From contig OZ241857.1 in NCBI GenBank assembly GCA_965203315.1, positions 672,001 through 736,000 on the forward strand: a stretch of DNA of 64,000 nt, in the 5' to 3' direction. The translations under genes and the position numbers were made by a program. How positions within the stretch are numbered: position 1 is the stretch's first letter; each line of letters opens with the position of its first letter. The notes beneath the pieces were generated by a model. It did no database searches and was not told where the DNA came from. It saw only the letters and a list, made by a program, of their open reading frames with translations. Source of the DNA: Nitrosopumilus sp. Its GTDB lineage: Archaea > Thermoproteota > Nitrososphaeria > Nitrososphaerales > Nitrosopumilaceae. Below are positions 6,850-41,230 of this stretch, piece by piece.

Positions 6850-7977
6850 GTGAAGGTGCATTCAACAAAGATAGATGGTGATAAGCATGCTGGTCGATCC
6901 AAAGAATCGTCTACAAAGCCCAAGACAGATGGAAACACACACATTATACGACTACCCAAGAGAATCAAGATGATCTATGTAGGGATAGATGCTCACAAAA
7001 AGTTTCTCCAGATAGCAGCAGTAGATGAAAAAGGCAAATTGCTACTCAATGAGCGTGTAATTAATGAACATAGGTATGTTAAAGAATTCTTTGCTCAATT
7101 TCCTAGGGATAAAACAAAATGTGTGGTAGAGTCATCATCAGTATGGCAAGGGTTGTTCAGATACATTAGAGATGATCTGGGGTTTGATATTATACTGTCT
7201 AACCCATATCAAACCAAAGCTATTGCTTCATCAAAGAAAAAGACAGACAAAGCAGACGCCAAAATACTAGCAGACCTACTCAGAGGAGATTACGTAACAG
7301 AATGTTATGTGGCTGATCTGTACACTATGGAATCAAGAGAATTAGTTAGATATAGAAACAGTCTCGTACAACATAAAACAGATTTTAAGAATCTAATTCA
7401 TGCAATAACACTACAAAAAGGAATCAAGATAATAGGTACACCATTTACTCGAGGATATACAAAACAATTAGAAACAATTGGAGACAGACGTATACTAGGA
7501 TATCTAAATCTAATTAATTCAATTAACGATGAAATTACTAGGACTAATTTTGAGATAAAGAGAAGAGTAGAAGAATCTAAATCTGCTCAATTACTGAAAA
7601 CTATTCCTGGCATTGGAGACTATATTGCACTTACAATATCTTCAGAGATTGGCGACATATCTAGATTTAACGACGCAGACAAACTATGCATGTATGCCGG
7701 AATAGTTCCTGCAGTATATAACTCGGGAGAAAAAAAAATAAAAGGAAGAATAACAAAACGAGGAAGCGGTATAATGAGATGGGTTCTAGTTGAGGCCATA
7801 CGAGTACATGTTGTTCATGCTAAAGATAGTCATATTACAAAATTTTACAACAAGCTCGCAAAAAAGAAAGGAAAGAAAAAAGCAGCAGTTGCAGCAGCTG
7901 CAAAGCTACTCAGAATTGCGTATTACATGCTCAAAAAGGAGGAAAAATTTGATATACATTATGGTCAGAATCGTTAA
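6850..7977 (+). CDS. IS110-family DEDD recombinase/transposase
   Basis: YVGIDAHK, VVESS, KKTDKADA, LKTIPGIG, YAGIVPAVYNSG; paralog of 1234-2370. Confidence 0.95.
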   Translation: MKVHSTKIDGDKHAGRSKESSTKPKTDGNTHIIRLPKRIKMIYVGIDAHKKFLQIAAVDEKGKLLLNERVINEHRYVKEFFAQFPRDKTKCVVESSSVWQGLFRYIRDDLGFDIILSNPYQTKAIASSKKKTDKADAKILADLLRGDYVTECYVADLYTMESRELVRYRNSLVQHKTDFKNLIHAITLQKGIKIIGTPFTRGYTKQLETIGDRRILGYLNLINSINDEITRTNFEIKRRVEESKSAQLLKTIPGIGDYIALTISSEIGDISRFNDADKLCMYAGIVPAVYNSGEKKIKGRITKRGSGIMRWVLVEAIRVHVVHAKDSHITKFYNKLAKKKGKKKAAVAAAAKLLRIAYYMLKKEEKFDIHYGQNR

Positions 7978-8181
7978 AGTGCGTGCTACCGGTTGGGAGA
8001 AAATCATCCCGTGAACTTAATTGCATAGATTCTGATAAAAGGACGAAGAATGGTGGTGGGACATTGCGAACCCGGATGGATAATTATCCGAAATCCTTTG
8101 ATTGATAGGAACACATTCCTAGCGTAAGCTATGCACCACAATCATAAGATCTCTAAAACCTTTATAAATACTTCACATGGA
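7978..8181 (+). ncRNA. Putative bridge/seek RNA region of IS110 copy 2
   Basis: Conserved with copy 1 (GGACGAAGAATG, ATGGATA, GGAACACAT-CCTAGCGTA-GCTATGCAC); GAACTTA matches the left target half GGAACT-TA. Confidence 0.55.
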
Positions 8182-8247
8182 TAACCGGTTACAGCAAGAC
8201 CAACACAAAATATAAATATGACGCAATCAATAAAAATATGAGAAAAA

Positions 8248-9612
8248 TTGCTAGTTGAGAAAGCAAAAGGCATTTCAGAGTTTTTACAATCTTTTGAAGA
8301 GTCTGAACCAAACTTGGATGGTGAAAAAACGTTCAGAGAATTTGTTGCGAATCACATAAGAGAGGCTTCCAAGCATGCCGACTCGATAACTACTCTTCCA
8401 TCACAGATGCAAAATGAATATCTACAAGCTATGAGTGATTCGGTCTATTTTCGAGGAGAGCCTGACTGGCATCCACTTTTAAATTTGATCGAGCAGATAA
8501 TCAACGACTCTAAATACCATCCAGAATTGATCAATAGTGATATGACAAATCTTGCATCAGACATACTTGAAAATGGAATGCGTCGGAATGTTATCAGTTA
8601 CTCCTTAAAAGAACGAGTATGGGATATTATTCTAAAGATAGTTGAGATAGGAGACATGTACAATGAACCAGAACATGCCACATCTATGGCAGCTGAGTCT
8701 TTTAAACAATCAGTAAAAAATATCGGTGGAAAGTCATACCATGTGTTGTACATGTATTTGGTTTGGTGCAACGATAATAATGAACCAAATAACAGATTCA
8801 AAGATGTCAAACAAATCTTTGAAAGGTACCTAACAAATACCAAAAAATATACAATATCTAGGCATGCAGTATTTGGGTATTTTTTATCTAGATCGTTATA
8901 CATAAACAGACAGTGGACACTAGATGTGGTGATAAAGAAGATAGAATCAAGTTCATTATATTTCAAGATATCTTTTTGGCATTGTTATCTGTTTAATGAA
9001 AAAGAGAGAGAGTTGTTCATTACAATGAGATCATGGTACCGTGAATTTCTCACTAATCGTGAGATCATACATGTCATACATGACAATAGACTGTACAGGA
9101 AAACTATTGAACATGTTACAATAGCCTTTCTGTATGATGTAAAAGGTTTTGATGAAATATTGACAGAGTTTATCAATGATGCTGACGACAAGTCGTTAGA
9201 ATGCTGTTTCAACATTGCGTTTATCGCTTCAACAGACAAAGAGAATAGCATCAGAGTTAAACCTAAAATACATTTATTGTGGAAAGATAAGAGATTTGTA
9301 AACTCGTCCAACTTTGAAATCTGGTTCAAGGAGAGCATATTTGACAAAGATAACATTGATCTATTGTTGTATTATATTCAAAACCGAACTAGAGAGTTTC
9401 CAGACAGTGAATTCCCCATTGATCGACTTGCAGAATACATAGACGATTGTCCATTAAAGGTAGCACAATGTATAAAGATGCTTGTAGGCAGACATGTAGG
9501 TCTAACACACAAGACTATACAACCACTACTAGACAAACTATGCAAGAACAATAATCCAGAGATCATCAACATGTGTAGAGAGATTGACAAAAAGATCAAA
9601 ACTACAACTTGA
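8248..9612 (+). CDS. Helical-repeat hypothetical protein, probably the C-terminal part of a larger disrupted gene
   Basis: 454-aa ORF starting just after the IS66 TSD with a weak TTG start; no recognisable catalytic motif. Confidence 0.55.
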   Translation: MLVEKAKGISEFLQSFEESEPNLDGEKTFREFVANHIREASKHADSITTLPSQMQNEYLQAMSDSVYFRGEPDWHPLLNLIEQIINDSKYHPELINSDMTNLASDILENGMRRNVISYSLKERVWDIILKIVEIGDMYNEPEHATSMAAESFKQSVKNIGGKSYHVLYMYLVWCNDNNEPNNRFKDVKQIFERYLTNTKKYTISRHAVFGYFLSRSLYINRQWTLDVVIKKIESSSLYFKISFWHCYLFNEKERELFITMRSWYREFLTNREIIHVIHDNRLYRKTIEHVTIAFLYDVKGFDEILTEFINDADDKSLECCFNIAFIASTDKENSIRVKPKIHLLWKDKRFVNSSNFEIWFKESIFDKDNIDLLLYYIQNRTREFPDSEFPIDRLAEYIDDCPLKVAQCIKMLVGRHVGLTHKTIQPLLDKLCKNNNPEIINMCREIDKKIKTTT

Positions 9613-9644
9613 GTCCAAGTACACGAGTTAGAGATAGCAGCTGT

Positions 9645-9785
9645 AGACTGTATGCGTATTTCTTATGTCTTGTGCATATTTTGAGACACAATCAAACACA
9701 TATGTGATTTCCAGAAGCAAACTGATTCATTGTTGTCATGTTTGATGATTGGACATGAGCACTCTTAATAATACGCATACAGTTT
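9645..9785. mobile_element. MITE family A copy 3
   Basis: Family A TIRs and internal homology. Confidence 0.85.
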
Positions 9786-10019
9786 ATAGAATCTTGTAGT
9801 GATTTTTCTGTAACAGTCATCCCACATAAGCCACAAAGATCCCAACAGATGTATTTACCAAGAAGCAACCTCCAAAACAGTTGTTGCTGAAGAATCACGA
9901 GATAAGTATCATGTCAAATGAGGGGACGAAATACTTTCCGGATCCTACACAGCCCACACGAAACCGTCATGTACATAAAGGATTTATATCATAAATGGTA
10001 GATATTAGAGTGACTGGAA

Positions 10020-10430
10020 TTGACTAGTGTTCAAGTAAAGAGTACAGAAAAATCAGAGATGAATGAGATGTTAGCCAACATCAAACGACTACAGTCCATA
10101 GTAAGCAAGGTTCAAACCACAGCAACAGATTTGGCCCAAAGAGAAAAAACATGCATGGATAAAGTAAATTTAAAAATTATTGAAGTGTTTGATGTTGATT
10201 TTATAAAGCAGGTGTGTTATGAAAATGATGTTGAAGATAACGAAATAAAAATAGTTGTGATTTATGAACATAATGACTTTCAATACGCAGTTGACATAAT
10301 AGTTAATAGATTCGTACAATTTAAAAAATGTTTTAGGGGTATGTATCTAGAATTAATGTTTTTTCACACTACTGAAGTTAAACCAAACCGCCTAGAGGAT
10401 ACAACAACAGTTTTTAAAAGGAATATGTAA
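10020..10430 (+). CDS. Degenerate minimal-nucleotidyltransferase-like protein (module copy 1)
   Basis: Homologous to 15965-16438 and 35114-35599 (DFIKQVCYE, VIYEH, HTTEV-P, TTTVFKR); directly upstream of a HEPN gene. Confidence 0.65.
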   Translation: MTSVQVKSTEKSEMNEMLANIKRLQSIVSKVQTTATDLAQREKTCMDKVNLKIIEVFDVDFIKQVCYENDVEDNEIKIVVIYEHNDFQYAVDIIVNRFVQFKKCFRGMYLELMFFHTTEVKPNRLEDTTTVFKRNM

Positions 10431-10432
10431 TT

Positions 10433-10775
10433 ATGTGGCATTACGAAAAAAGTAATCGCAACATTGACACATATAATTACCTTCATAAAAAAAACTTCTG
10501 ATTATGTGGATTGGGAGGCAACCACTATATTTTATGCAGGATTGCATCTAGTTGATGATTATTTTGAGGATAGTAATATCAAAGTGCGAAAGAATCACAA
10601 GAAACGAAAGATAATGGTAGAGAAATATCTTTCAGATGTAGAGGCAGATTACGAACTTTTATTTACTCCAAGTATTCGTGCAAGATATGAAGACATACAG
10701 ATATCCAACAATGATGTAGATGTTGCACTACTTGCTTTTTCAAGGCTAAAATCAAAAATTCAGGCTCTTAGATAA
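10433..10775 (+). pseudogene. HEPN-domain toxin-like gene frameshifted in an A8 run (module copy 1)
   Basis: ATG 10433 gives MWHYEKS, like MSWYYEKS of copy 2; A7 at 10487-10494 would restore a 113-aa ORF with DWE..IFYA.LH and RARY. Confidence 0.7.
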
Positions 10776-10790
10776 CTAGACATCATGTAC

Positions 10791-11049
10791 CAGTTTACCC
10801 AATTGTCTATCCAACACGCCACCGCAGATTTCGGTGGTGGCTCTGGTTCGATATCTGGGCCGATAAACGATTCGGTGTATTCGTATGTCATTTCTAGAAA
10901 AACAAGTGCAGTAATTTGATTGCAATAATCAAAGAGATCGTCTTCGCATTGTATGTTTCGTGCTAGAATCCATGCGTTGTAAAACAATACACCGAAAATA
11001 AACATCAATTCTCGTACTCATCATAGCTAAAAGTCTTTAATCTCATACT
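10791..11049 (-). mobile_element. ISH3/IS4-like transposase 3' remnant with terminal CAGTTTACCCAATT
   Basis: FIFGVLFYNAWIL tail; near-identical inverted copy at 27079-27339. Confidence 0.55.
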
Positions 11050-11184
11050 AGACGGTATGCGTATTATTAAAAGTGCCCACATCCAATCATCAAACACGAT
11101 AACATGAATCAATTTGCCTCTAGAAATTATACCTGTGTTTTATTGACCTTAAAATGTACGTATGTAAGAAACACACGTACAGTC
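11050..11184. mobile_element. MITE family A copy 4
   Basis: Family A homology with variant TIR AGACGGTATGCG. Confidence 0.8.
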
Positions 11185-11462
11185 GGGTACAGATTTAAAA
11201 ATACTAGATGGATTAATTTATGAAAATGCAATCATTACCAAATATTCGAGTTTATGAGAACGCAGTTTGCGTGGCAAATAGTCATGAAACGGTGTCTTTT
11301 CAACTAGAATCCTGCACGAATCTCGAGTCAGTTATTCGTCAATACATTAATCAAATTAGATGTTTGTGATCGAGTCAGTGATGTATAGTTGAACTATACG
11401 ATATCATTGTAGAACCACAAATGACACAAGGATAAATAGTCCTAAATCGATAGCCTCTATTA

Positions 11463-12632
11463 TTGAGTAACATTGTTCTAAACTCAGAGAATTTGAACCT
11501 AGTCCTAGATGGCAATATGGCATCACAAGAGATGATTCAAGAGATATACCATGACGCGTTGACCAAACCTGAAGAGTTGTTTGCTAGTGCACAATACTTG
11601 AGAACAAAGTTTAAGCAAAACATCGTGACATTCTCAAAAAAGGCGTTCCTGAATGTGATAAACTTGTGTAGAGACACATGTTTGTACTGTACATACAAGG
11701 CTGAGCCGGGCGAAGAAAAAGCAACACTCTTGTCAGAGACGCAGATCAAAGAGATATTGAGCATGGCAAAACGATATCGATGTGTTGAGGCTCTGCTCGT
11801 CACAGGTGAGAGACCAGAACAGCGATATCCACAAGCAAGAGAGTGGCTTGCCAAGAATGGATTCAAGACAACAGCAGAGTATCTGATACATGTATCACAT
11901 TTGGCGCTAGACATGGGACTATTCCCACACACAAATGCAGGCAATCTAGAGTATGATGAGCTATGCGAACTAGGTAAAACAAACGCTTCCATGGGAATAA
12001 TGTTAGAGAACTCGAGTGATAGATTGAGCAGAAAAGACATGGCACATCATCTAGCACCAAGCAAACATCCACGTGCAAGATTAAGAGTCTTAAAGGATGC
12101 AGGCAGACTAGGCATACCAATGACTACAGGAGTCCTTGTAGGCATAGGAGAGACGATACAAGAGATCATCGACTCGATCATCACGATACGCAACCTACAT
12201 CAAGAGTATGGAAACATCCAAGAAGTAATAATACAAAACTTTCAACCAAAGCCAGACACCGCAATGTATAACACAAAGACTCCAGAGACGCAATACTTTA
12301 AGATAATAGTAGCACTATGCAGGATCGCGATGCCAGAGATGAATATTCAGATTCCTCCAAACCTATCGCCATCATCGTATTATGATTTTCTCAAGGTAGG
12401 GATAAATGACTGGGGCGGTATATCACCACTTACACCAGACTTTGTCAATCCCGAGTTTGGGTGGCCAGAGATCTCGAGGATAGACGAGTATGCCACAAGG
12501 GCTGGTTTTCAACTAGAGTGTAGATTTCCTGTATATCCAGAGTTTCACCATATGGTACATAGAGATATCAGAGAAGAGATGAGTCACATAATGGATAGAG
12601 ACGGACTAGTTTGTGAGGACTATTGGCGATGA
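11463..12632 (+). CDS. cofG: FO synthase subunit CofG (radical SAM)
   Basis: CRDTCLYC, LFPHTNAG, ASMGIMLE, IQIPPNL, GINDWGGISP. Confidence 0.95.
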   Translation: MSNIVLNSENLNLVLDGNMASQEMIQEIYHDALTKPEELFASAQYLRTKFKQNIVTFSKKAFLNVINLCRDTCLYCTYKAEPGEEKATLLSETQIKEILSMAKRYRCVEALLVTGERPEQRYPQAREWLAKNGFKTTAEYLIHVSHLALDMGLFPHTNAGNLEYDELCELGKTNASMGIMLENSSDRLSRKDMAHHLAPSKHPRARLRVLKDAGRLGIPMTTGVLVGIGETIQEIIDSIITIRNLHQEYGNIQEVIIQNFQPKPDTAMYNTKTPETQYFKIIVALCRIAMPEMNIQIPPNLSPSSYYDFLKVGINDWGGISPLTPDFVNPEFGWPEISRIDEYATRAGFQLECRFPVYPEFHHMVHRDIREEMSHIMDRDGLVCEDYWR

Positions 12633-16901: not shown

Positions 16902-17070
16902 GGTTCTTTTAACTTAGCAGGTGGTCGATAGTTTTCACGCAACATTCTCTAAAAATTTTACAAGTTATGAAAAATGTCTAGATCGCCCATTGTGGATTAT
17001 TACCATAAGCTGCATACAGTACGTTTCTTGAAATACTTGTATCTTAACCCCCCGATAAATTAAAAGAACC
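16902..17070. mobile_element. MITE family B copy 1 (IS6-type GGTTC ends)
   Basis: GGTTCTTTTAACTTA / TAAATTAAAAGAACC. Confidence 0.8.
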
Positions 17071-18472: not shown

Positions 18473-19600
18473 CTAGTTGATGGTTGGTCGCTCTTGTAAT
18501 GTTATCGTTATACTCATCTCTACACCGTCCCGCAAGATGCCTAGTGTCATCTCATCTCCTACAGTCTTGGCCCTTTGTAGATGAATCAATATGTCGTCGA
18601 TCTTTCTGACATCGATACCATCTACAGACAAGATGACGTCGCCTCCTATCATGTATGTAGCATCATCTACTGTTATCGTACTGCTAGAACCAATCAGACC
18701 AGCTCTTGATGCAGGACTGTTATCGACTACGCTGATCACTAAAAATCCTACTGCATCATCGAGGTTTAAGATATTGGCCAAATCTGGATCAATATCTCTG
18801 CCAGATATTCCAATCCATGGATGATTGTACTCGCCATCTTTGATCAGTATTGGAACTATCTTTGCAATAGTCTGTGACGGTACGGCAAAACCAACGCCAG
18901 TGAATTCGCCAGTAGTTGATTGGATGGCAGTGTTGATCCCCACAACCTCGCCCCTCTGATTCAAGAGTGGACCACCAGAGTTTCCAGGATTTATGGCAGC
19001 GTCGGTTTGTATTATATCTGGAATAGAATAGCCAGAACCGGATGGTAGTAACCTTCCCAGCTGACTAACGATTCCCGATGTCATGGAACCTGATAACCCA
19101 AATGGATTTCCTATAGCAGATATCTCTTCTCCAACTTTGAGATTTCCAGAGTCTCCCAATTGAAGCGGATGTAACAACGAGAGATCAGCGTCCACTTTTA
19201 CCACTGCAATGTCGGTATATTGATCTGCGCCGATTATCTCTGCATTGTATGACCGACCATCCAGAAATGTAATCACCGTCTTCTTTGATCCATCTACAAC
19301 ATGATGGTTTGTTATAATGTGCCCACGCTTGTCAAACACAAATCCAGAACCGACTCCAAACGGTACCAGTTCGGTATCGTTACGTTGAATGTTTACTCGT
19401 ACTACACCTGGTTCTGTTCTCTCAAATATCTCGATCAGTGTAAGATCTGAATAACTAGATGTATCAGTATAATCTACATTGCCACTTGCTGTAGATAATG
19501 TTGGAATTGATTCTGGTACAGCTATAAACATTGCAACAAATATTACCAGCACGAGTGTAGCTCCAAAAGCTCCTGACAGAATCATGCTGGGTATAGTCAT
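18473..19600 (-). CDS. HtrA/DegP-type serine protease with PDZ domain
   Basis: GSGF, TNHHV, DIAV, IQTDAAINPGNSGGPL; N-terminal TM. Confidence 0.95.
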   Translation of the reverse strand: MTIPSMILSGAFGATLVLVIFVAMFIAVPESIPTLSTASGNVDYTDTSSYSDLTLIEIFERTEPGVVRVNIQRNDTELVPFGVGSGFVFDKRGHIITNHHVVDGSKKTVITFLDGRSYNAEIIGADQYTDIAVVKVDADLSLLHPLQLGDSGNLKVGEEISAIGNPFGLSGSMTSGIVSQLGRLLPSGSGYSIPDIIQTDAAINPGNSGGPLLNQRGEVVGINTAIQSTTGEFTGVGFAVPSQTIAKIVPILIKDGEYNHPWIGISGRDIDPDLANILNLDDAVGFLVISVVDNSPASRAGLIGSSSTITVDDATYMIGGDVILSVDGIDVRKIDDILIHLQRAKTVGDEMTLGILRDGVEMSITITLQERPTIN

Positions 19601-19794
19601 CGATTTATCATGTATGGTTTGTATCTAAAAAGATTACTGATTATGGTTCTGTAAAGTTGTAGGGACCTGAGATGTTAAACTCTAGATCTCAAGGATCAAC
19701 CAAAATCATACTGAGAAAACATAGTTGTGTCGATCTCTTGTAGAGACTCGCATTCTGAATTATGGTCTTCCACTTGTTAAGTCTATCTATTATA

Positions 19795-20256
19795 GGTTCT
19801 GTATAATCTTCGAGACCTGACATTTTGATATAAAAACCATTAAAGATAGATAGTATTCTAGTTATCATAATAATGCCCACACTAGATTGGATCGGCAAGT
19901 CAGCTGTTAAAGACCATCATAAGACGATCCCCTATCACCTACTAGAAAAAGATGAGAAACTATCCATTGGGAATACCAAAAACATGTTGATACAGGGTGA
20001 TAATTTACTAGCACTCAAGAGTCTCTTACCGTACTATAAGAACAAGATCAAATGCGTGTACATAGATCCACCATACAACACAGGCAATGAATCATGGATA
20101 TACAACGACAAGGTAAACTCACCCACCATCCAAAGATGGATTGACAAGGTGGTTGGCAAACCAGACGAAGATCTATCCATGCATGACAAGTGGCTCTGCA
20201 TGATGTATCCTAGACTATCTCTATTACGAGAGTTGATGTCAGATGATGGTGTGATA
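19795..20256. repeat. 462-bp inverted repeat, left arm (partner 26226-26687)
   Basis: No mismatch found by eye; covers the TIR, the promoter region and the first 128 mod codons. Confidence 0.9.
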
Positions 20257-21243
20257 ATAATCCACATCGATGAACATGAACAAGCAATATTACATTTGTT
20301 AATGTTTGAAATATTTCATAAAAATAACCATCTGGGAACATTGATATGGAATAAGAAAAACCCTAAAGGTGACTCTAAAAAGATTTCATATCAACATGAG
20401 GAAATAGTAATTTTTGCAAAAAATGCTGTTCATTTTGTAGAAAAACATGATTTAAAACGACCAAAAGAACATGCACAAGAAATGATAAAAAAAGCAAAAT
20501 ACTTTTTTTCAAAACTAGATCAAAGCAAAATACCAAACGATATCTTGTACATTACAAAAAAATACAATATTCCATATGACTGGAGTCAAAAGTTTTCTAA
20601 AACTGTAACACTTGGTGACATAAATAAAGAATATTCAATATGGTTGAAAGATCAAAATTTTTCTGCAGGTGAAAAAGCATACTCACATATATCTGAAATA
20701 GGGAGGGTGTACAGACTGGTATCAATGGCATGGCCGAACAAGAAGAAAGCTCCACGGGAATATTTTGTACCATTAATTCACCCAATAACCAAAAAACCAT
20801 GTCCAGTTCCAAAACGTGGTTGGAGATATTCACAGAAAACTATGAATGAACTTTTGCAAACAGATCAAATTCAGTTTGGTAAAGATCATACTACTCAACC
20901 AAACAGAGTATATTTTCTGAATGAAAATATGAATGAAAACATATCTTCGATACTGAATTATGGTGGTAGTGATGATATGATTCTAGAAAAAATGGGTATT
21001 ATTTTTCCTAACTCAAAACCAATAGTAGTTGCAAAGACACTATTGAAGTGGTTTACAGATAATCATGGATTGGTACTAGATTCTTTTGCTGGGTCAGGTA
21101 CTACTGCCCAGGCAGTCATGGAACTAAACAAAGAGGATGGAGGTGATCGTCAATTCATTCTGATAGAAATGGAACATCAAATTACCAAAGACGTGATTCA
21201 TAAGAGGCTAACAAGGGTTATTGATGATTTGTGTTCTACATAA
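19873..21243 (+). CDS. mod: Type III Mod-like adenine DNA methyltransferase (allele 1, lacks the C-terminal domain)
   Basis: IQGDNL, YIDPPYNTG, TRD, LDSFAGSGTT. Confidence 0.9.
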   Translation: MPTLDWIGKSAVKDHHKTIPYHLLEKDEKLSIGNTKNMLIQGDNLLALKSLLPYYKNKIKCVYIDPPYNTGNESWIYNDKVNSPTIQRWIDKVVGKPDEDLSMHDKWLCMMYPRLSLLRELMSDDGVIIIHIDEHEQAILHLLMFEIFHKNNHLGTLIWNKKNPKGDSKKISYQHEEIVIFAKNAVHFVEKHDLKRPKEHAQEMIKKAKYFFSKLDQSKIPNDILYITKKYNIPYDWSQKFSKTVTLGDINKEYSIWLKDQNFSAGEKAYSHISEIGRVYRLVSMAWPNKKKAPREYFVPLIHPITKKPCPVPKRGWRYSQKTMNELLQTDQIQFGKDHTTQPNRVYFLNENMNENISSILNYGGSDDMILEKMGIIFPNSKPIVVAKTLLKWFTDNHGLVLDSFAGSGTTAQAVMELNKEDGGDRQFILIEMEHQITKDVIHKRLTRVIDDLCST

Positions 21244-21282
21244 CATTCAAAAATTTATATATTGACTAATCTAACTTAAATC

Positions 21283-21483
21283 ATGGTAACAAAGCCATGT
21301 AGAGAATGTCAAAAAGTACTTGTCACAAATGGAGAATTATGCGATGGGTGTTGTAAGAAAAATACTAGTTTGGGAGCAAAATCTACAGTTAATATGATTA
21401 AATCAACTAAACATAATTCTAAATATATGTCAAAAATTAAAAAATTATTTGAAAATAAAAAAGAGAGAATGAATAGATCATAA
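21283..21483 (+). CDS. Small Zn-finger-like hypothetical protein
   Basis: CREC...CDGC; upstream TTTATATA. Confidence 0.4.
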   Translation: MVTKPCRECQKVLVTNGELCDGCCKKNTSLGAKSTVNMIKSTKHNSKYMSKIKKLFENKKERMNRS

Positions 21484-22599
21484 TGATCTCTTGTACATAC
21501 TCGCATTCTGGATGATCGTCTTCCATTTATTGGGTCCATCGATCAAAATCAACGCTTCTTCAGCTGGTGTCTTACCACCCAGACCCTCATGTTTTTTGGT
21601 ACAGTTGTAGAACGTTCTAAATCCACCGATGAGGGATGTATCGTCTTTCTTGAGACCTCTAAATGCGACTTCACGATCTCGGATTGTACCATTCAATCTT
21701 TCCATCTTATTATTATTATCTCTAGATCGTTTGCCTGTCAAGTGAATGTGTTTGATGTGTCTGGTCTCTTTACCAAATACTCGTTTACTAGATTTCTCAT
21801 ATGCTGGAAGTCCATCAGTTATGAAATTGGTTGGTCGTTTACCAGTCTGTTCCAGAGTTTGAAGTAGAAACTGATCGGTATTGTGCATGTATTTTGAATC
21901 TGCCAGTTCGTGAGTAATCCAGTATCGTGTGTCGTCATCCATGGAACTGTACAGGTATCGTTGTTGTCCAGATATCTTGAGATACAACTCGTCAGCTCGA
22001 TACCACTTACCAACTCGCGGTATGATGCTGTCTATGTATGTACATGATTCATCAGAGTATTGATCTAGCCAGTTGTAAATGGTCATGTGACTGATCTTGA
22101 TTCCCTTCATTTCAAAATGGTTTGCAATATCACGAACAGAGTTACCTTGATTGTACAGTTGCATTGTGTCGGTTATTATTTCACTATCGAACTGTTTTCG
22201 TTCAAATCCATGATTAGGGGTGAATCGACTCTTGCAATCTTTGCACCAAAACAGTTGTACTTTACCTCTCTTTGTATTTCGGAATCCCTTTTTGATTACT
22301 CTGCCCGAATCACATTTCTTGCAGAGATGTAGTTTTGCTCTATCCATTATTTGGACTATATTATTTTGCCAACACTTGTTCTTTTTGATTATGTGCAGAA
22401 CGACCTTGATGTGTTTGCAGTCTGCCTTGCGGTATCGGTGATCGGGGCACTCACATACTAGACCGCGATCAGTTCTTGATACGTTGTATCTTGTTTCTGG
22501 ATTAGTCTGGGATCTGACGCTAAACGTGTCTCTGTCGATCTGGGAACAATGTCCACTCGTACTCATGATCTCGATTGATTTTTGAGTTCTTGCGTTCAT
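21478..22599 (-). CDS. IS6-family DDE transposase with N-terminal SWIM and Zn-ribbon domains (intact)
   Basis: CECPDH...CKHI (SWIM), CKKC...CKDC, WYRADE, ITDGLPAY, NNKMERLNGT; ATG 22599 preferred. Confidence 0.92.
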   Translation of the reverse strand: MNARTQKSIEIMSTSGHCSQIDRDTFSVRSQTNPETRYNVSRTDRGLVCECPDHRYRKADCKHIKVVLHIIKKNKCWQNNIVQIMDRAKLHLCKKCDSGRVIKKGFRNTKRGKVQLFWCKDCKSRFTPNHGFERKQFDSEIITDTMQLYNQGNSVRDIANHFEMKGIKISHMTIYNWLDQYSDESCTYIDSIIPRVGKWYRADELYLKISGQQRYLYSSMDDDTRYWITHELADSKYMHNTDQFLLQTLEQTGKRPTNFITDGLPAYEKSSKRVFGKETRHIKHIHLTGKRSRDNNNKMERLNGTIRDREVAFRGLKKDDTSLIGGFRTFYNCTKKHEGLGGKTPAEEALILIDGPNKWKTIIQNASMYKRSL

Positions 22600-22742
22600 T
22601 GCGTGAACGAAGCGTCGTTTTTCAATATAAAGAGTTGGGAGATACTGTTGTTTGTGTGGTGAGTATAATACAGGTGAGTGTTGAACCATTAAATCTATTA
22701 AATTTATAATATAAAATCTTTAGGTCGATTCATTATTTTATT

Positions 22743-25046
22743 TCAATCTGAAGACACAACAGAGTTATTTATTTCATCAATAAGTTCATTTATTTCTTCC
22801 TTGAATATGATCTTAGTTTTATAGTTTTCACCTGCAAGTGTAGATAAAATATCTAACATTTTTTGTTTATACACGGTCTTCTCATTACCCTTTAGGTGTT
22901 CACCCTTGTACTCTATAATATAGTAATGATCATTATTTGTTTTTATTATAAAATCTGGATAAATTAAATTTGGCTTCCAACCCATGACGTAAAATGCATT
23001 TTCGTTTTTAACAGGATTTCTATACCACCACTTTACTGTATCCAAACTGTCAATTTTTGTAGCAAAATCCTCTTCTTCCTTATTCATTCTTTCGAGATTG
23101 TTAAATAGATGTTTTGTAAATGTATTCTCTTGTGGATTTGTTAATGGCATATCATTTGATAACGATCTATACATACATACTAAATTACCTTTCTCTAAAT
23201 GTTGCATAAACTTCTTTTTGGACTCATCTTGCTCATACATGTTTATGCTGTTGTTTATTTTTTCAATAACAATTCTGATGTTTTTAGACAATTCTTTTAT
23301 TTTTTCTTTTTCAGATTTAGTTATATCGTTTTGAATATATCTATCTACTATATCATTTATATATTTTGTCATGTCTTTAGAACTATATCGCGCTCTCCTT
23401 ACCTCTCTTCTAAGTTTAGTCATAAGTTTATCTTTTGTGTAAGAATCAGAATCATCAGGAAATAGAGTTTTTTGTACAGTGGATTTTATTCCTGATTCTG
23501 TTACATCAATTTCTCGAACTTCAGATATACTTGTCAATTGCCCAATATTGATTATATCTGGGTTCGGTAGCATATCTGGCAATAAATCTTCATATTCTAA
23601 CATATGTTTAATTGGTTCAGTGATTGTAATACAAGGTAATTTAATATCATTATCATCAATAACTTGTCTAGTTTGTGTTACATCTTTCTTCTTTTTTGAA
23701 GGTATCATATCTTTTTTATCATATCCATTTCTTTCTAATTCTGATTCTAATTCTTTTACTATTTGATCCATATTAATCGATGATGTAAACACATAAGCAC
23801 AATTCAGTGCATCAATGGGTTTTCTCTTTTGTTTTGGCATTCGTAATATTCTTCCTATTATTTGTTCACCTGCTGTTCTTGACTTTGTGTTCATTATAGA
23901 TACTAGGACATATGCGAATGGATTATCCCAACCTTCTGCTAACGCTCTTACAGTTATGATGTATCTAATTGGACTACTTTTTGAGTTCAGATTCTTCCCT
24001 TTTAGATCATCGTCTTTACTCGTCTTAATGGCTATCTGTTCTTCAGGAATTTTATGGTTTTTCAGTAAATAATTTTTAACCTGGTTGGTATCAATTACTT
24101 TTTCTGATTCTTTATTTTGTTCTGCTTGAAATAGTATGATTGGACGTATGTATTCTCCAGTAATTTTTTTCAATTTATTACACTCTCTTTCTAGAAAATG
24201 TCTCTTTTGAATACCAAGATCAATTACTCTTTCCCAATCAGGTTCGTTAGTGTGGATGATGGGAAGTTTTACCATCCCTTCATTTTTTAGTTCTACAGCA
24301 TTTACATTCACTAGTACATTGGATTCTTTACCCAATTCATTTCTTGGAGTAGCTGTAAACTCTATTACAAAACTTGGATTAAAGTTTTGAATCATCTCGT
24401 ATGATAGATGTGTTTTTGTGTGATGTGATTCATCTAAAATAACTATTGGATGATATAATTTTATTACTTCATGCAAAGATGGTGTAACAGTAGAGGTTAA
24501 TCCTTGAAAATGATCCATTAATGAACCATTTTCTTTAAAGACATTCTTTTTAGACATCTTTTTTGGAGTATCTTCTGTCCTAAATACAGCAAATGTCGCC
24601 ACTATGATACATAAATTATTCTTAATATCAGATCTTTTAATCGATAGTGCTTCTTCTATACTAAATACTTTGATGTCACTAAAAGATTCGTTTAACGTAG
24701 CATAATAAATATCTCCAAAATTACATAATTTTTTAATTGTTTGATATAATATGGCATCGGTGGGAACTAACCACAAAACTAAACCAACATCATCTATACG
24801 ACTAAGATATTCTCTATGAATGGTTTTGATGGATTCACATGCTACTAGTGTTTTACCGCCTCCTGTTGGTATCTTTATACATATGGAAGGGGCGTCTATG
24901 TTGTGGTTGTTATATTTTGTTTTTGTTACTACATAAAACGCAGTATCTTTAGGATCTCCATCTTTATCCAAACTATGTATTTTGGTAATATAATTAACCA
25001 AGTCTTCAATAGATTTGGATTGATATTTTTTAAGAATGTTCGTCAT
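22743..25046 (-). CDS. res: Type III restriction subunit Res (SF2 helicase plus PD-(D/E)xK nuclease)
   Basis: PTGGGKT, DESHH, FTATP, AEGWD, QIIGRILR, YPDF...IEYKG; ATGA overlap with mod stop. Confidence 0.92.
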   Translation of the reverse strand: MTNILKKYQSKSIEDLVNYITKIHSLDKDGDPKDTAFYVVTKTKYNNHNIDAPSICIKIPTGGGKTLVACESIKTIHREYLSRIDDVGLVLWLVPTDAILYQTIKKLCNFGDIYYATLNESFSDIKVFSIEEALSIKRSDIKNNLCIIVATFAVFRTEDTPKKMSKKNVFKENGSLMDHFQGLTSTVTPSLHEVIKLYHPIVILDESHHTKTHLSYEMIQNFNPSFVIEFTATPRNELGKESNVLVNVNAVELKNEGMVKLPIIHTNEPDWERVIDLGIQKRHFLERECNKLKKITGEYIRPIILFQAEQNKESEKVIDTNQVKNYLLKNHKIPEEQIAIKTSKDDDLKGKNLNSKSSPIRYIITVRALAEGWDNPFAYVLVSIMNTKSRTAGEQIIGRILRMPKQKRKPIDALNCAYVFTSSINMDQIVKELESELERNGYDKKDMIPSKKKKDVTQTRQVIDDNDIKLPCITITEPIKHMLEYEDLLPDMLPNPDIINIGQLTSISEVREIDVTESGIKSTVQKTLFPDDSDSYTKDKLMTKLRREVRRARYSSKDMTKYINDIVDRYIQNDITKSEKEKIKELSKNIRIVIEKINNSINMYEQDESKKKFMQHLEKGNLVCMYRSLSNDMPLTNPQENTFTKHLFNNLERMNKEEEDFATKIDSLDTVKWWYRNPVKNENAFYVMGWKPNLIYPDFIIKTNNDHYYIIEYKGEHLKGNEKTVYKQKMLDILSTLAGENYKTKIIFKEEINELIDEINNSVVSSD

Positions 25047-26609
25047 ATTTTCACCTCATATGGTATTTGTTTGAAGATGCAACGCCATCGTTCTAGTTTT
25101 TTGTGTGATATACTACACAAATCTGAATAGACTATTTTCTGTACATTTTTGTCCATCTCTTTTAGATGTTTGAAAGTAAAGATATTCTTAGATTTGGGTT
25201 TGTATATTAGATGAATTTGAACTCCATCATTTGTTGTACCCAACAGAGTACCCTTTATCCGATGTATTGTCTTATTGGTCTCTGTCAAGTAAATGTGGTG
25301 TGCTAGATTAGTAAAAGTACATTTTGTTATATTGCCATCACAGTCAAAGAGTTCATTACCCAGCGTGTAAAAGTCAAATCCAAATTGATCATTGTCTTGG
25401 GGGGGGGGCGGTCTCAGCTTTTAGTTTTTTTGTCACGATATCTAATCTTTTGTGAGTAACTGATCTTACGACATTTGGATCCATCTCTATTAAAATGAAT
25501 TTTCTACTACCTTTATCTTTTTTGTTTAATTCCATTACAGTTTGTGCTGTAGTACCAGACCCTACAAAAGAGTCTAGAATGATGTCGTTATGTGATGTAG
25601 AAGCAAGTACCAAATCATGTATCAATTTAACTGGTTTTACTGTATAAAATGGTACATCTCTACCTTCTTTGATATTGAATAATTTTTTAATTTCACTTTT
25701 TGCATCATTATTAGACGTATTATCGATTATACTGTCAAATTTAATCTTTCCGTCATTATCAAATTCATAATATTTTTTATACACTTGATACTCTCCATTT
25801 TGTTTCTTTTTGAATAATATCCTCTTATCTTTTAGTAATTCTTTAAATTTTGGTTTTGCAACTAACCATTGAGTTTTAATTTCCTTCCCATCTGGAAGTT
25901 TAATTGGATAAACAAGGGTCGGTCTACTTTCTAAATTTGATTTTAATGGTCTAATGTAATACCTACCTCTACTGTTAATGAATTCGTCATCATAAACAAA
26001 TTTAGATTTGTCTTTTTCAGGGCGTGGTATCAAAAATTCGGTTACTTTAGATTTATTTTTTCCAAATACCAATATATATTCATGTAGATCAACAAAATGG
26101 TTTGAATGTTTACCTCCAGTATATTTTTTCTTCCAAACTAATTCTGCAATAAAGTTCCTTGCTCCAAATATCTCGTCACATAGTATCTTGAGATGTGCTT
26201 GTTCGTTGTCATCTATTGAGATGAATATCACACCATCATCTGACATCAACTCTCGTAATAGAGATAGTCTAGGATACATCATGCAGAGCCACTTGTCATG
26301 CATGGATAGATCTTCGTCTGGTTTGCCAACCACCTTGTCAATCCATCTTTGGATGGTGGGTGAGTTTACCTTGTCGTTGTATATCCATGATTCATTGCCT
26401 GTGTTGTATGGTGGATCTATGTACACGCATTTGATCTTGTTCTTATAGTACGGTAAGAGACTCTTGAGTGCTAGTAAATTATCACCCTGTATCAACATGT
26501 TTTTGGTATTCCCAATGGATAGTTTCTCATCTTTTTCTAGTAGGTGATAGGGGATCGTCTTATGATGGTCTTTAACAGCTGACTTGCCGATCCAATCTAG
26601 TGTGGGCAT
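25043..26609 (-). CDS. mod: Type III Mod methyltransferase (allele 2), frameshifted at a C10 tract
   Basis: DPPY and DSFVGSGTT; C9 or C12 at 25399-25408 continues into GFDFYTLGNELFD...HIYLTET...FKQIPYEVKI, giving 521 aa with C9. Confidence 0.88.
25399..25408. repeat. G10/C10 homopolymer in mod (candidate phase-variation tract)
   Basis: Sits exactly at the frameshift; very rare run in this AT-rich DNA. Confidence 0.8.
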
Positions 26610-26687
26610 TATTATGATAACTAGAATACTATCTATCTTTAATGGTTTTTATATCAAAATGTCAGGTCTCGAAGATTATACAGAACC
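26226..26687. repeat. 462-bp inverted repeat, right arm
   Basis: Reverse complement of 19795-20256. Confidence 0.9.
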
Positions 26688-26937
26688 CTATTATAATCAA
26701 TGCTTCTTCAGATAGAGTCTTGCCGACCAACGCTTCATGTTTCTTTGTACAATTGTAGAGTGTTCTGAATACACCTATCAAACTGGTATCATCTTTCTTG
26801 AGACTCCTAAATGCGACTTTACGATCTCGAATTGTACCGTTCAATCGTTCCATTTTGTTATTGTTGTCTCTTAACTTCTTACCAGTTAGATGGATATGTT
26901 TGATGTGTCGAGTCTCTTTGCCGAATACACGTTTACT

Positions 26938-27078
26938 AGACTGTATGCGTATTTCTTACATCATATGCACGTTTTAAGGTACAATAAAACACAAGTGTGA
27001 TTTCTAGAGGCAAATTGATTCATTGTTATCGTGTTTGATGATTGGATGTGGGCACTCTTAATAATACGCATACCGTCT
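26938..27078. mobile_element. MITE family A copy 5
   Basis: Family A TIRs; truncates the IS6 remnant. Confidence 0.85.
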
Positions 27079-27339
27079 AGTATGAGATTAAAGACTTTTA
27101 GCTATGATCAGAGTACGAGAATTGATGTTTATTTTCAGTGTATTGTTTTACAACGCATGGATTCTAGCACGAAACATACAATGTGAAGACGATCTCTTTG
27201 ATTATTGCAATCAAATTACCGCACTTGTTTTTCTAGAAATGACATACGAATACACCAAATCGTTTATCGACCCAGATATCGAACCAGAGCCACCACCGAA
27301 ATCTGCTGTGGCGTGTTGGATAGACAATTGGGTAAACTG
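27079..27339 (+). mobile_element. ISH3/IS4-like 3' remnant, second copy
   Basis: Inverted near-identical copy of 10791-11049. Confidence 0.55.
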
Positions 27340-29098: not shown

Positions 29099-29498
29099 AT
29101 CAATTAGATTAAATATATTGTATTGCTAGTCATACTATACTGTGGTGGGCAATATGTCTAAAATCCGGAACCGTAACTCCAGTTCTAATGACAGTTGCCA
29201 TTCTTCCATCACAGTATAGTTACATACTTGGTACACTAGCGATCTATATGGTAAGCAGTATCATGCAAGGTGAGGTAAAGCCAACACGAGAGTCAAGCGA
29301 TCAGATGGCTGTCTGAGAGTAGAATTGCTTTCGAGTTCGTATTTGTGTGTAAAAATTACATACAGCACATGTAGAAGACTAGGCTACGATATCAAATGTT
29401 CAAAAGACATAGTCAATACGGCAAACAACTAGAGAACGCCATCTTGTCGCTGTACAGCACATGACATTAAAAAATTTACCAACCACTGCATTCTGCCA

Positions 29499-29812
29499 GG
29501 TTCTTTTAACTTAACAGGGGGTCTATAGTTTTCATGCAACATTCTCTAAAAATTTTACAAGTTATAAAAAATGGTTATAACACCAATTGTAGATTATTAG
29601 ACTGTATGCATATTTCTTACACCATACGCACATTTTAAAGTACAATAAAACGTAGGTGTAATTTCTAGAGGCAAATTGATTCATTGTTATCGTGTTTGAT
29701 GATTGGACATGGGCACTCAATAATACGCATACAGTCTATTGTTGTTTTAAGTTGCATATAGTGCGTTTCTTGAAATACCAGCATCATAACCCCCCAATAA
29801 GTTAAAAGAACC
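29499..29812. mobile_element. MITE family B copy 2 containing a nested family A MITE
   Basis: Family B TIRs at both ends; interior interrupted at 29599-29737. Confidence 0.8.
29599..29737. mobile_element. MITE family A copy 6 (nested)
   Basis: Family A TIRs flanked by TA. Confidence 0.85.
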
Positions 29813-29887
29813 TTCCATTGTTACATGCCTCGATCATGTTTTCAAAGTTTTTTCCATGACCTTGATTATGTGATTTTTGTTCGATCA

Positions 29888-36070: not shown

Positions 36071-36246
36071 GGTTCTTTTAACTTATTAGTGGGTTAAGAT
36101 GCTAGTATTTCAAGAAACGCCCTTTATGCAACTTACAGTAATAATCGGCAATGGGCAATCTAACCATTTTTCATAACTTGTAAAATTTTTAGAGAGTATT
36201 GCGTGAAAACTATCGACCCCCCCCCCCCCGTTAAGTTAAAAGAACC
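36071..36246. mobile_element. MITE family B copy 3
   Basis: Family B TIRs, opposite orientation, poly-C tract inside. Confidence 0.8.
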
Positions 36247-41229: not shown

Positions 41230-41230
41230 G

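What the first reader, a model, noticed from the sequence alone, without database searches (positions are those of the whole stretch)
19795..26687. IS6 unit transposon whose 462-bp terminal inverted repeats encode the shared N-terminus of two type III mod genes with different TRDs
Seen: the element has IS6-type GGTTCTGT ends and an 8-bp TSD (CTATTATA). It sits inside an older IS6 transposase. Its own transposase is central and has no separate TIRs. Both ends carry an identical 462-bp block (TIR, promoter, mod codons 1-128) that then diverges into unrelated TRDs. Mod2 is coupled to res; mod1 lacks the C-terminal domain. Known: IS6 elements make 8-bp TSDs, and TRD exchange between conserved flanks changes Mod specificity in bacteria. 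Inference: a mobile two-specificity methylation system. The TIR plus weaker 3' motif-I homology could let the spare TRD recombine into the restriction-coupled locus, and the interior could invert. I do not know of this architecture being described.
Basis: partly seen in the sequence, partly recalled or inferred. Interest (0 to 1): 0.85.

Follow-up and report, generated by a model that had tools for sequence, protein, structure and literature searches.

The report
Archaeal IS6 transposon carrying two-Mod restriction system
A 6.9-kb jumping element in an ammonia-oxidising archaeon carries a type III restriction-modification system with two methylase genes that share an identical start inside the element's long inverted ends, and relatives show their DNA-recognition parts being swapped between the two genes.

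Summary
Window 19795-26687 is a 6,893-bp element with exact 462-nt inverted ends, GGTTCTGT tips and an 8-bp target duplication. It sits inside an older IS6-type transposase gene.

It belongs to an IS6-like family of Nitrosopumilaceae that carries cargo between IRL and the transposase gene. RM genes were found in 13 of 15 cargo elements scanned, and in a second element of this genome. This element is the exception: its IRR is replaced by an inverted copy of IRL, promoter region and mod codons 1-128, fused to a second mod.

mod1 lacks the roughly 118-aa C-terminal domain (CTD), which contacts Res in EcoP15I.

In five other assemblies, known here only as proteins, the same CTD-less and CTD-bearing gene types recur. 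Three recognition domains (TRDs) each occur in both gene types, so TRD exchange happens.

Not shown: switching within a population, methylation by either Mod, tract-length variation in reads, and the DNA layout in the relatives.

Verdict: a real element and a new variant of known kinds. Interest is high.

The parts
19787..19794 (.). left copy of the 8-bp target-site duplication, CTATTATA
19795..20256 (+). left arm: 462 nt identical to the right arm. Holds the TIR core (19795-19826), an AT-rich TATA-like stretch (about 19826-19840, my inference) and mod codons 1-128 from the ATG at 19873
   Evidence: 2x depth in runs X1/X2
19873..21243 (+). mod1, 456 aa: type III Mod (N6_N4_Mtase) with its own TRD, a short-type 3' end and no C-terminal domain
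   Evidence: E=5.3e-34; nearest homologues 55-57% identical, 572-595 aa
21244..21477 (.). AT-rich spacer (24.8% GC) with no TIR remnant. Holds an orphan 66-codon ORF (21283-21483, +)
   Evidence: the ORF has no homologue other than itself among 1.84 billion representatives
21478..22689 (-). IS6-family transposase, 403 aa, with a Cys/His-rich N-terminal extension (read by eye as zinc fingers) and a DDE domain
   Evidence: DDE_Tnp_IS240 E=1.5e-16; 61 relatives in Nitrosopumilaceae and one Methanoperedens
22743..25046 (-). res, 767 aa: helicase motifs (PTGGGKT, DExH) and a PD...ExK nuclease motif sit in columns invariant across 25 Res sequences. Its ATG overlaps the stop of the mod2 CTD frame (ATGA)
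   Evidence: ResIII E=1.5e-18; EcoP15I Res E=1.5e-7
25046..25399 (-). C-terminal domain frame of mod2, 118 codons open, out of frame with the upstream part of mod2
   Evidence: matches the C-termini of 12 of the 15 nearest mod2 homologues, mostly at 33-43%; the equivalent part of a full-length relative aligns to the end of EcoP15I Mod
25399..25408 (-). run of 10 C (G on the + strand) at the boundary between the methyltransferase core and the CTD. 9 or 12 C would restore the frame
   Evidence: unchanged in contigs of 4 runs
25389..26609 (-). mod2 as it reads now, 406 aa: shared N-terminus, second TRD, long-type 3' end, stop just after the C tract
   Evidence: E=4.2e-44; nearest homologues 58-63% identical, 518-530 aa
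26226..26687 (-). right arm, identical to the left arm
26688..26695 (.). right copy of the target-site duplication, CTATTATA
19645..19794 (-). left part of the older, disrupted IS6 copy: its terminal repeat (19645-19676) and the last codons of its tnp
   Evidence: (D4, D6)
26696..26932 (-). right part of the older IS6 tnp (78% identical to the central tnp), cut off at 26933 by a roughly 146-nt MITE
   Evidence: (D1)

Best explanation
This is a cargo-carrying IS6-family unit transposon of a Nitrosopumilaceae archaeon. Its cargo is a type III restriction-modification system with two mod genes.

Mobility (shown unless marked). In the family the order is IRL - cargo - tnp - IRR. Here the IRR has been replaced by an inverted copy of the IRL end. 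That copy comprises the TIR, the upstream region and the first 128 mod codons, fused in frame to a second mod. The transposase therefore works on two IRL-type ends. That the whole 6.9 kb moved as one piece is shown by the TSD and the restored target frame. Movement by the replicative route of IS6 elements is inferred from the family.

The two Mods. The long Mod (mod2) has the C-terminal domain and is coupled to res. By homology with EcoP15I, this domain is the part that holds Res. The short Mod (mod1) ends where that domain would begin. It keeps all methyltransferase motifs. I infer that it methylates its own motif without directing restriction.

TRD exchange. Over evolutionary time the TRDs pass between the short and the long gene by homologous recombination in the conserved flanks (the shared 5' arm and the motif-I region). 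The exchange itself is shown by protein mosaics in relatives. The route is inferred. The 5' arms are kept alike by gene conversion or inversion between them (inferred).

The C tract. A run of 10 C before the C-terminal domain puts mod2 out of frame. As sequenced, the product is a CTD-less Mod2 and res has lost its translational coupling, so restriction is probably off while methylation may persist. I infer that tract-length change, or slippage during transcription, can turn it back on.
For: Mobility and family:
- TSD, GG...TGT tips and DDE_Tnp_IS240.
- In 21 of 61 tnp loci an IRL/IRR pair could be matched (at least 25 of 36 positions). Of these, 14 of 21 have perfect 8-bp TSDs, and their inverted repeats are 29-58 nt.
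- 16 of the 21 are longer than 3 kb, and 13 of the 15 scanned carry RM genes.
- A second element in this genome (C1:511494-518527, TSD GATATTTG) carries an MmeI-type enzyme.
- Sister transposases carry different cargo. L045 and L046 share only IRL plus 122 nt and tnp-IRR.

Type III identity:
- Pfam hits for Mod and Res.
- EcoP15I Mod at E=1.4e-55, found with the full-length homologue P0125.
- A model of the full-length relative P0243 aligns to 4zcf_A with Z 30.2, rmsd 3.7 over 362 residues, model 1-519 against chain 55-644.
- Res catalytic motifs lie in invariant columns.
- mod-CTD directly followed by res in 52 of 80 metagenome loci.

CTD role: in EcoP15I the CTD of ModA makes extensive contacts with Res, and Mod2 alone is a methyltransferase (PMC4490356, passages).

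Frameshift. The tract is unchanged in the contigs of 4 runs from 3 samples and 2 studies.

Recurrence and exchange:
- Short and long gene types recur in assemblies alpha to epsilon.
- TRD-A occurs in the short type twice and in the long type once, at 94-97% identity.
- TRD-B occurs in the long type twice and in the short type once, at 98%.
- TRD-D occurs once in each type, at 98%.
- N-termini are 100% identical within this genome and within alpha, but 88% between the two.
- The proline run stands at the same place in alpha's long gene, out of frame in a different frame. It is interrupted or absent in the in-frame relatives.

Foreign cargo: res is 29.7% GC and the TRD parts 30-32%, against 37.6% for the window.
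Against: - The relatives alpha to epsilon are known here only as proteins. Whether their two genes lie inverted in one IS6 element is unknown.
- Neither the element nor its arm was found in the genomes searched: 60 relatives, 151 of the genus and 401 of the family. None of the 61 tnp loci has type III cargo or long terminal repeats.
- In this element the 3' homology between mod1 and mod2 is only about 75% with short exact runs, which is poor substrate for recombination.
- No read-level evidence exists for inversion, TRD swap or tract-length variation. Contigs show one state.
- mod2 may simply be a dead gene. Activity of the CTD-less Mod is inferred from intact motifs and open frames only.
- In delta all three genes seen are of the short type, which the simple two-gene picture does not explain.
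Confidence: 0.7

Rival explanations
1. Programmed specificity switch. The central block (3' end of mod, C tract, CTD, res, tnp, spacer) inverts between the two motif-I regions, so that either TRD becomes the res-coupled one. The CTD-less Mod keeps the other motif methylated, so a switch does not kill the host. The C tract toggles restriction alone. This extends the best explanation rather than excluding it.
For: - The two genes are in inverted order with conserved flanks on both sides of each TRD.
- Three TRDs occur in both gene types among relatives.
- All 8 short-type genes seen have open frames ending within a few codons of one another.
- The CTD is the Res-contacting part in EcoP15I.
- G/C tracts also lie inside 5 of 16 cargo elements of the family.
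Against: - Motif-I homology in this element is only about 75%.
- There is no dedicated recombinase beside the DDE transposase.
- No alternative junction appears in the contigs of 4 runs, though contigs drop rare variants.
- Delta has three short-type genes.
Confidence: 0.2
2. Debris. Two related type III elements landed tail to tail, or one duplicated by intramolecular replicative transposition. A deletion then removed one res-tnp-IRR. mod1 is a non-functional remnant, mod2 is a pseudogene, and the identical arms only reflect a recent event.
For: - The region is a graveyard of IS copies and MITEs.
- mod2 is frameshifted.
- mod1 is truncated.
- The element is single-copy and was not found in the relatives searched.
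Against: - The same short and long gene types recur in other assemblies with different TRDs.
- N-termini are 100% identical within this genome and within alpha, yet 88% between them. That fits ongoing homogenisation better than one recent accident.
- Res motifs are intact, and the 118-codon CTD frame is open and homologous.
- The composite transposed after it formed (TSD).
Confidence: 0.1
3. Assembly or polishing artefact that created identical arms.
For: Identical long repeats can come from collapse or over-polishing. The best-holding runs may be the source of the assembly.
Against: - The arm is a separate contig at twice the depth in X1 and X2, and branches into both the mod1 and the mod2 continuations.
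- The perfect TSD and the restored target frame need two real ends.
- A second study's run (X4) also holds arm-mod1 and arm-mod2 junction contigs (records 25, 26, 32).
Confidence: 0.02

Closest known systems
IS6 family (IS26, IS257), and its one recorded passenger-carrying member ISDsp3
   Same: DDE transposase of the IS240/IS6 type, GG tips with a CTGT motif and an 8-bp TSD. The IS6 review states these hallmarks and names zinc-finger-extended transposases in clades h and i (PMC7986276, passages).
   Different: The review gives 15-20-bp TIRs, and a single tIS with one hypothetical passenger. It lists no thaumarchaeal members in the passages I read. Here the cargo is a three-gene RM system, the terminal repeats are 462 nt and include coding sequence, and a whole archaeal lineage carries RM cargo.
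EcoP15I-type type III restriction-modification systems
   Same: A beta-class Mod (DPPY before the TRD, FxGxG after it) followed by a helicase-nuclease Res, with mod upstream and overlapping res. Sequence and fold match EcoP15I Mod.
   Different: There are two mod genes for one res, one of them lacking the Res-contacting CTD. Res is shorter (767 against 970 aa). The system is borne on a transposon in an archaeon.
TRD movement between type III mod genes in Helicobacter pylori (Furuta and Kobayashi 2012, PMC3467074, abstract read)
   Same: TRDs move between mod genes by recombination in sequences that encode conserved methyltransferase motifs. The result is mosaic proteins and TRD trees that disagree with the rest of the gene.
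   Different: There the genes are full-length and sit at separate chromosomal loci. Here the partner is a CTD-less gene paired with the res-coupled one, in this genome inside one mobile element, with identical 5' parts.
Phasevarions: type III mod genes with simple-sequence repeats
   Same: A homopolymer tract inside mod sets the reading frame. The frame state differs between relatives.
   Different: As I recall, known tracts lie in the 5' part and switch the whole Mod off. Here the tract lies after the methyltransferase core, so the off state should still yield a CTD-less methyltransferase. Variation within a population is not shown. No such system in archaea turned up in my search.
Inverting type I hsdS systems (Atack et al. 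2020, PMC7394358, abstract seen in a search listing)
   Same: Duplicated, differing specificity genes in inverted order that exchange TRDs through shared repeats.
   Different: Those are type I specificity subunits. As I recall, many have a dedicated tyrosine recombinase. Here the genes are type III Mods, there is no such recombinase, and the system lies inside a transposon.

Membership tests
IS6 family of insertion sequences | DDE transposase of the IS6/IS240 type | tested here: met
   Pfam DDE_Tnp_IS240, E=1.5e-16, 61.2 bits against a cut-off of 27
IS6 family of insertion sequences | 8-bp target-site duplication | tested here: met
   CTATTATA on both sides. 14 of 21 paired relatives also have perfect 8-bp TSDs
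IS6 family of insertion sequences | Short (15-20 bp) related terminal inverted repeats with GG tips and a cTGTt motif (PMC7986276) | tested here: inconclusive
   The tips GGTTCTGT fit. However, the repeat runs on for 462 nt, whereas relatives have 29-58 nt
IS6 family of insertion sequences | Replicative transposition through cointegrates | not testable with these tools
   Needs a transposition assay
Type III restriction-modification system | Beta-class N6-adenine Mod with a central TRD | tested here: met
   N6_N4_Mtase for both mods. DPPY lies before and F(A/V)GSGTT after the variable part. The P0243 model matches 4zcf_A at Z 30.2
Type III restriction-modification system | Res with an SF2 helicase and a PD-(D/E)xK nuclease, encoded after mod | tested here: met
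   ResIII E=1.5e-18; EcoP15I Res E=1.5e-7; Walker A, DExH and PD...ExK in invariant columns; ATGA overlap with the CTD frame
Type III restriction-modification system | Intact, expressed Mod able to hold Res | tested here: not met
   As sequenced, mod2 stops after the C10 tract, before the CTD. mod1 has no CTD
Phase-variable mod (phasevarion) | Simple-sequence repeat within the reading frame | tested here: met
   C10 at 25399-25408
Phase-variable mod (phasevarion) | Tract length varies within a population | tested here: inconclusive
   Contigs of 4 runs all show the assembly's state, but contigs drop rare variants. Relatives differ in frame state
Inverting specificity systems (shufflon-like) | Inverted repeats flanking alternative specificity modules | tested here: met
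   462-nt identical 5' arms. The 3' motif-I regions are about 75% identical
Inverting specificity systems (shufflon-like) | Alternative arrangements found in one population | not testable with these tools
   Only contigs of the runs were available
Inverting specificity systems (shufflon-like) | Dedicated site-specific recombinase | tested here: not met
   The only recombinase-like gene in the element is the DDE transposase

The most novel reading that the evidence does not exclude
A self-contained, mobile restriction system that can change its target safely. Two Mods are driven from the identical transposon ends. One block of C-terminal domain, res and tnp can be joined to either TRD by recombination at motif I. 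The CTD-less Mod pre-methylates the alternative motif, so a switch is not suicidal. A C tract placed just before the Res-binding domain turns restriction, but not methylation, on and off. This would be the first such system in archaea and the first borne on an IS6 element.
Probability: 0.2. Interest if true: 0.88.

Novelty: new variant of a known kind. Interest (0 to 1): 0.74.

Why it matters
Three points go beyond one odd locus.

1. IS6 elements are regarded as plain insertion sequences. The 2021 review records one passenger-carrying member. Here a lineage of them in ammonia-oxidising archaea acts as a vehicle for restriction-modification systems of many types, which offers a simple route for defence genes to move in these abundant organisms.

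2. The pairing of a CTD-less Mod with a res-coupled Mod, with TRDs found in both gene types among relatives, suggests how a type III system might change specificity without attacking its own genome.

3. A homopolymer tract at the boundary between the methyltransferase core and the Res-binding domain would uncouple restriction from methylation. Together with the 38 long G/C tracts in this genome, it raises the question of whether contingency loci exist in archaea. Cultures and long-read methylomes can test all of this.

Tried and rejected
The queue was full each time and the job never ran. CTD-Res binding therefore rests on homology with EcoP15I only.
- DNA of the assemblies alpha to epsilon could not be reached. 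They are not among 151 genus genomes or 401 family genomes. The metagenome scan gave 80 loci that are 41-48% identical, apart from one 1,972-bp contig at 62%.
- Self-comparison of 128 mod loci found no inverted duplicate of a mod start. The one inverted duplication, in G002, proved to be two head-to-head large ORFs around a mod fragment.
- Among the 61 tnp loci, four have inverted repeats of 80 nt or more that bracket the tnp. Only L061 was inspected at sequence level, and its 614-nt repeat lies outside the IRR. For L062, L094 and L097 I compared coordinates only. In none do the repeats coincide with element ends.
- Reads. Only contigs were served, so inversion, TRD swap and tract-length spectra could not be seen.
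  - Bins over the right junction are low in X3 and empty in X4, and in those runs a contig runs from the left flank through the arm unbroken. I cannot interpret this, and a part without cover is no finding.
  - Joints 21568>26717 and 23319>26664 have short sides (40 and 27 nt) and fall in tnp-to-tnp or TIR-like similarity. I take them as cross-matches.
- The sigma-70 promoter scan does not apply to an archaeon.
- The N-terminal 128 aa are 51-70% identical to the nearest homologues of mod1 and 56-68% to the 15 nearest of mod2, so the donor of the arm cannot be told.
- The 66-codon ORF in the spacer has no homologue other than itself.
- One literature search failed on a term that was too long and was not repeated.
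- Supplementary tables of PMC6563490, which may list thaumarchaeal IS6 copies, were not open.
Full report
**What is in the sequence**

Window 19795-26687 (6,893 bp) is bounded by inverted arms that match over 492 nt at 98%. The first 462 nt are identical base for base (19795-20256 and 26226-26687), after which similarity collapses. Both tips read GGTTCTGT. CTATTATA stands directly outside each tip, at 19787-19794 and 26688-26695.

Removing the insert and one copy of the duplication restores a minus-strand frame...EEALIIIDRLNKWKTIIQNAS.... This frame is colinear with the C-terminus of the transposase inside the element. The target was therefore an older IS6-type transposase gene. Its own terminal repeat lies at 19645-19676, and its upstream part is cut off at 26933 by a MITE.

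The element is single-copy in the 2.47-Mb genome. The arm occurs exactly twice.

**Genes**

From left to right the element holds:
- mod1, 19873-21243 (+), 456 aa, N6_N4_Mtase.
- A 234-bp AT-rich spacer.
- tnp, 21478-22689 (-), 403 aa, DDE_Tnp_IS240.
- res, 22743-25046 (-), 767 aa, ResIII.
- mod2, 25389-26609 (-), 406 aa, N6_N4_Mtase.

The transposase has no terminal repeat of its own. Six of 8 other copies in the genome carry ...CAGAACC 60-100 nt after the stop and the central copy does not. The spacer and the res-tnp gap align to the TIR no better than a control stretch does.

The Res motifs (PTGGGKT, DExH, PD...ExK) fall in columns that are invariant across 25 Res sequences.

mod2 stops just after a run of 10 C (window 25399-25408). 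In another frame, 118 codons stay open down to a TGA that overlaps the res ATG as ATGA.

That frame matches the C-termini of 12 of the 15 nearest mod2 homologues, mostly at 33-43%. Those homologues are 518-530 aa long. mod2 is therefore a full-length type III mod broken by a frameshift, and 9 or 12 C would restore it.

mod1's nearest homologues are 572-595 aa, and 22 of the 29 nearest compared have that same C-terminal domain.

**Is it an artefact?**

Four public runs hold the stretch, as contigs only. They come from three samples and two studies, and some may be the source of the assembly.
- In X1 and X2 the 462-nt arm is its own contig at about twice the depth of its neighbours.
- Contigs join left flank to arm, arm to mod1 and arm to mod2.
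- The contigs over the C tract show no difference or gap in any of the four runs.

This argues against a collapse or a homopolymer miscall. Contigs cannot show orientation isomers or rare variants. Low or empty bins over the right junction in X3 and X4 remain unexplained.

**The family it belongs to**

The transposase has 61 relatives in the species-representative genomes, nearly all Nitrosopumilaceae and one Methanoperedens.

In 21 loci I could pair an IRR with an upstream IRL (at least 25 of 36 positions). Fourteen of the 21 have perfect 8-bp duplications, and their repeats run 29-58 nt.

Sixteen of the 21 are 3.0-6.4 kb, with cargo between IRL and tnp. I scanned 15 of them (L086 was left out), and 13 carry restriction-modification genes:
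- N6_N4 or EcoRI-type methylases with HNH, GmrSD, CfrBI or BglII nucleases.
- Eco57I/MmeI-type enzymes.
- One methylase fused to a type I specificity domain.

This genome holds a second such element (C1:511494-518527, 7,034 bp, TSD GATATTTG). Its cargo is an MmeI-type enzyme, itself split by another IS.

Its transposase is sister to the one studied here (support 100/98). L045 and L046 have near-identical transposases but different cargo. This comes from the tree, which has 18 rows; four elements with a tnp frame under 300 aa were left out. L045 and L046 share only IRL plus 122 nt and tnp-IRR. Cargo is thus modular.

None of the 61 loci has type III cargo or terminal repeats over 58 nt.

The IS6 review records 15-20-bp repeats and one passenger-carrying member (PMC7986276, passages). 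The survey of thaumarchaeal mobile elements describes IS of one or two genes (PMC6563490, passages). I could not open the supplementary tables of that survey.

**How this element differs from its family**

With tnp read left to right, the family order is IRL - cargo - tnp - IRR. Here it is IRL - mod2 - res - tnp - spacer - (mod1, inverted) - IRL. The IRR is gone. In its place stands a second IRL with the same upstream region and the same 128 codons, continuing in frame into another mod.

The fusion lies at homologous positions of the two genes, which points to homologous recombination rather than a random deletion. A likely history is this:
- Two related type III elements lay tail to tail. IS6 elements often land in each other, as this one did.
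- A deletion then removed one res-tnp-IRR and the other IRR.
- The 5' parts were later homogenised.

This history is inferred. What is shown is that the composite transposed afterwards as one unit.

**Recurrence and TRD exchange**

The protein database holds ten close relatives (N-terminus 78-89% identical to ours).

They fall into the same two gene types:
- A short type ends within a few codons of where mod1 ends.
- A long type has the mod2-like 3' end and, where in frame, the C-terminal domain.

By segment:
- TRD-A is found in two short genes and one long full-length gene (94-97% identical in the TRD). The long copy's 3' part is 100% identical to other long genes and only 53-68% to the short ones.
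- TRD-B is found in two long genes and one short gene (98%).
- TRD-D is found in one gene of each type (98%).
- TRD-C is found in two short genes only.

So 3 of the 4 TRD types that were seen more than once occur in both contexts.

Within this genome and within assembly alpha the two N-termini are 100% identical, yet between the two assemblies they are 88% identical. In the other assemblies the within-assembly figure is 90-97%. This fits repeated homogenisation of the arms.

The long gene of alpha has the same proline run at the same place and is out of frame in a different frame from ours. In the in-frame relatives the run is interrupted or absent.

All of this is protein-level evidence. The layout of these genes on their contigs is unknown to me.

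**Mechanism**

A model of the full-length relative P0243 has a confident core and C-terminal domain (pLDDT 81-96 from residue 410). It aligns to EcoP15I Mod with Z 30.2, rmsd 3.7 over 362 residues. The aligned range runs from model 1-519 to chain 55-644, that is, into the EcoP15I C-terminal domain.

In the EcoP15I structure, the C-terminal domain of the DNA-reading Mod makes extensive contacts with Res. The Mod dimer forms through the N-terminal and methyltransferase domains and methylates on its own (PMC4490356, passages).

From this I infer three things:
- Short Mods, and mod2 in its present frame, are methyltransferases that do not direct restriction.
- Only an in-frame long Mod arms Res.
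- The C tract sits exactly where it would uncouple the two activities.

Exchange of TRDs between the two genes would need crossovers in the 5' arm (462 nt identical) and in the motif-I region. In this element that region is only about 75% identical over about 130 nt. I therefore expect exchange here to be rare, an evolutionary process rather than a fast switch. Inversion between the identical arms is likely, but it leaves the gene set unchanged.

**Comparison with what is known**

Each component is known:
- IS6 transposition.
- Type III systems.
- Homopolymer switches in mod.
- TRD movement between type III mod genes in Helicobacter pylori (PMC3467074, abstract).
- Inverted duplicated hsdS genes in type I systems (PMC7394358, listing).

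Four things are new as far as my searches reach:
- A lineage of IS6 elements that carries RM cargo in archaea.
- Terminal repeats that include a promoter region and 128 codons.
- The pairing of a CTD-less Mod with a res-coupled Mod, with shared TRD traffic between them.
- A tract placed before the Res-binding domain.

**Verdict**

I rate it a new variant of known kinds with high interest. The open points are activity of the Mods, variation within a population, and the DNA context of the relatives.

Noticed in passing
whole genome; in the window 25399-25408 and 36217-36229 (C1:708217): Long G/C homopolymers have a two-peaked length spread: 38 tracts of 9-17 nt against 14 of 7-8 nt. Most lie in short intergenic stretches, or within about 50 nt of the start of very large ORFs (528-2,427 aa), with G on the sense strand. 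A family-2 glycosyltransferase is split at a G12 tract. Relatives show them too: 22 tracts in 1.0 Mb of tnp loci, and 5 of 16 cargo elements hold one, at 73.5 per Mb inside against 22.6 per Mb outside. This looks like contingency loci in an archaeon.
   Followed up: partly
window 26933-27083: A roughly 146-nt MITE with about 20-nt terminal inverted repeats. It has 72 near-full copies in the genome and very high depth in the runs. This copy truncates the older IS6 transposase gene.
   Followed up: partly
G000 C1:511494-518527 (L102:11494-18527): A second cargo-carrying IS6 element of 7,034 bp with a perfect 8-bp duplication (GATATTTG). Its cargo is an MmeI-type restriction-modification enzyme that is itself split by an IS with a DDE_Tnp_4 transposase.
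   Followed up: yes
window 51268-55920, 38870-45236 and 5061-6680: A 1,550-aa type ISP restriction-modification enzyme, a NurA-HerA-Mre11-Rad50 gene row and an IS66-type transposase lie in the same window.
   Followed up: no
window 29498-29813 and 17006-17070: Another short repeat family with GGTTCTTTTAAC...-type ends. The 316-nt query gave 108 partial matches in the genome.
   Followed up: no
L205 (G002 C1:1148001-1168000), 7696-12224: In a genome of the same genus, two head-to-head ORFs of 599 and 629 aa that are about 90% identical flank a 130-aa fragment of a mod N-terminus.
   Followed up: partly
L061:1-614 and 11584-12197: A 614-nt inverted duplication at 99.7% identity. Its right copy abuts the outside of the IRR of an IS6 copy, and the left copy has no IS end. 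The left arm is cut by the locus start.
   Followed up: partly
window 18800-20256 and 26522-26834, runs X3 and X4: In two runs a contig passes from the left flank through the arm without a break. The right-junction bins are low or empty. X4 has a loose end at 26835. In X3 the mod1 contig has twice the depth of the res-mod2 contig. This may be strain mixture or a different right flank, and is not resolved.
   Followed up: no
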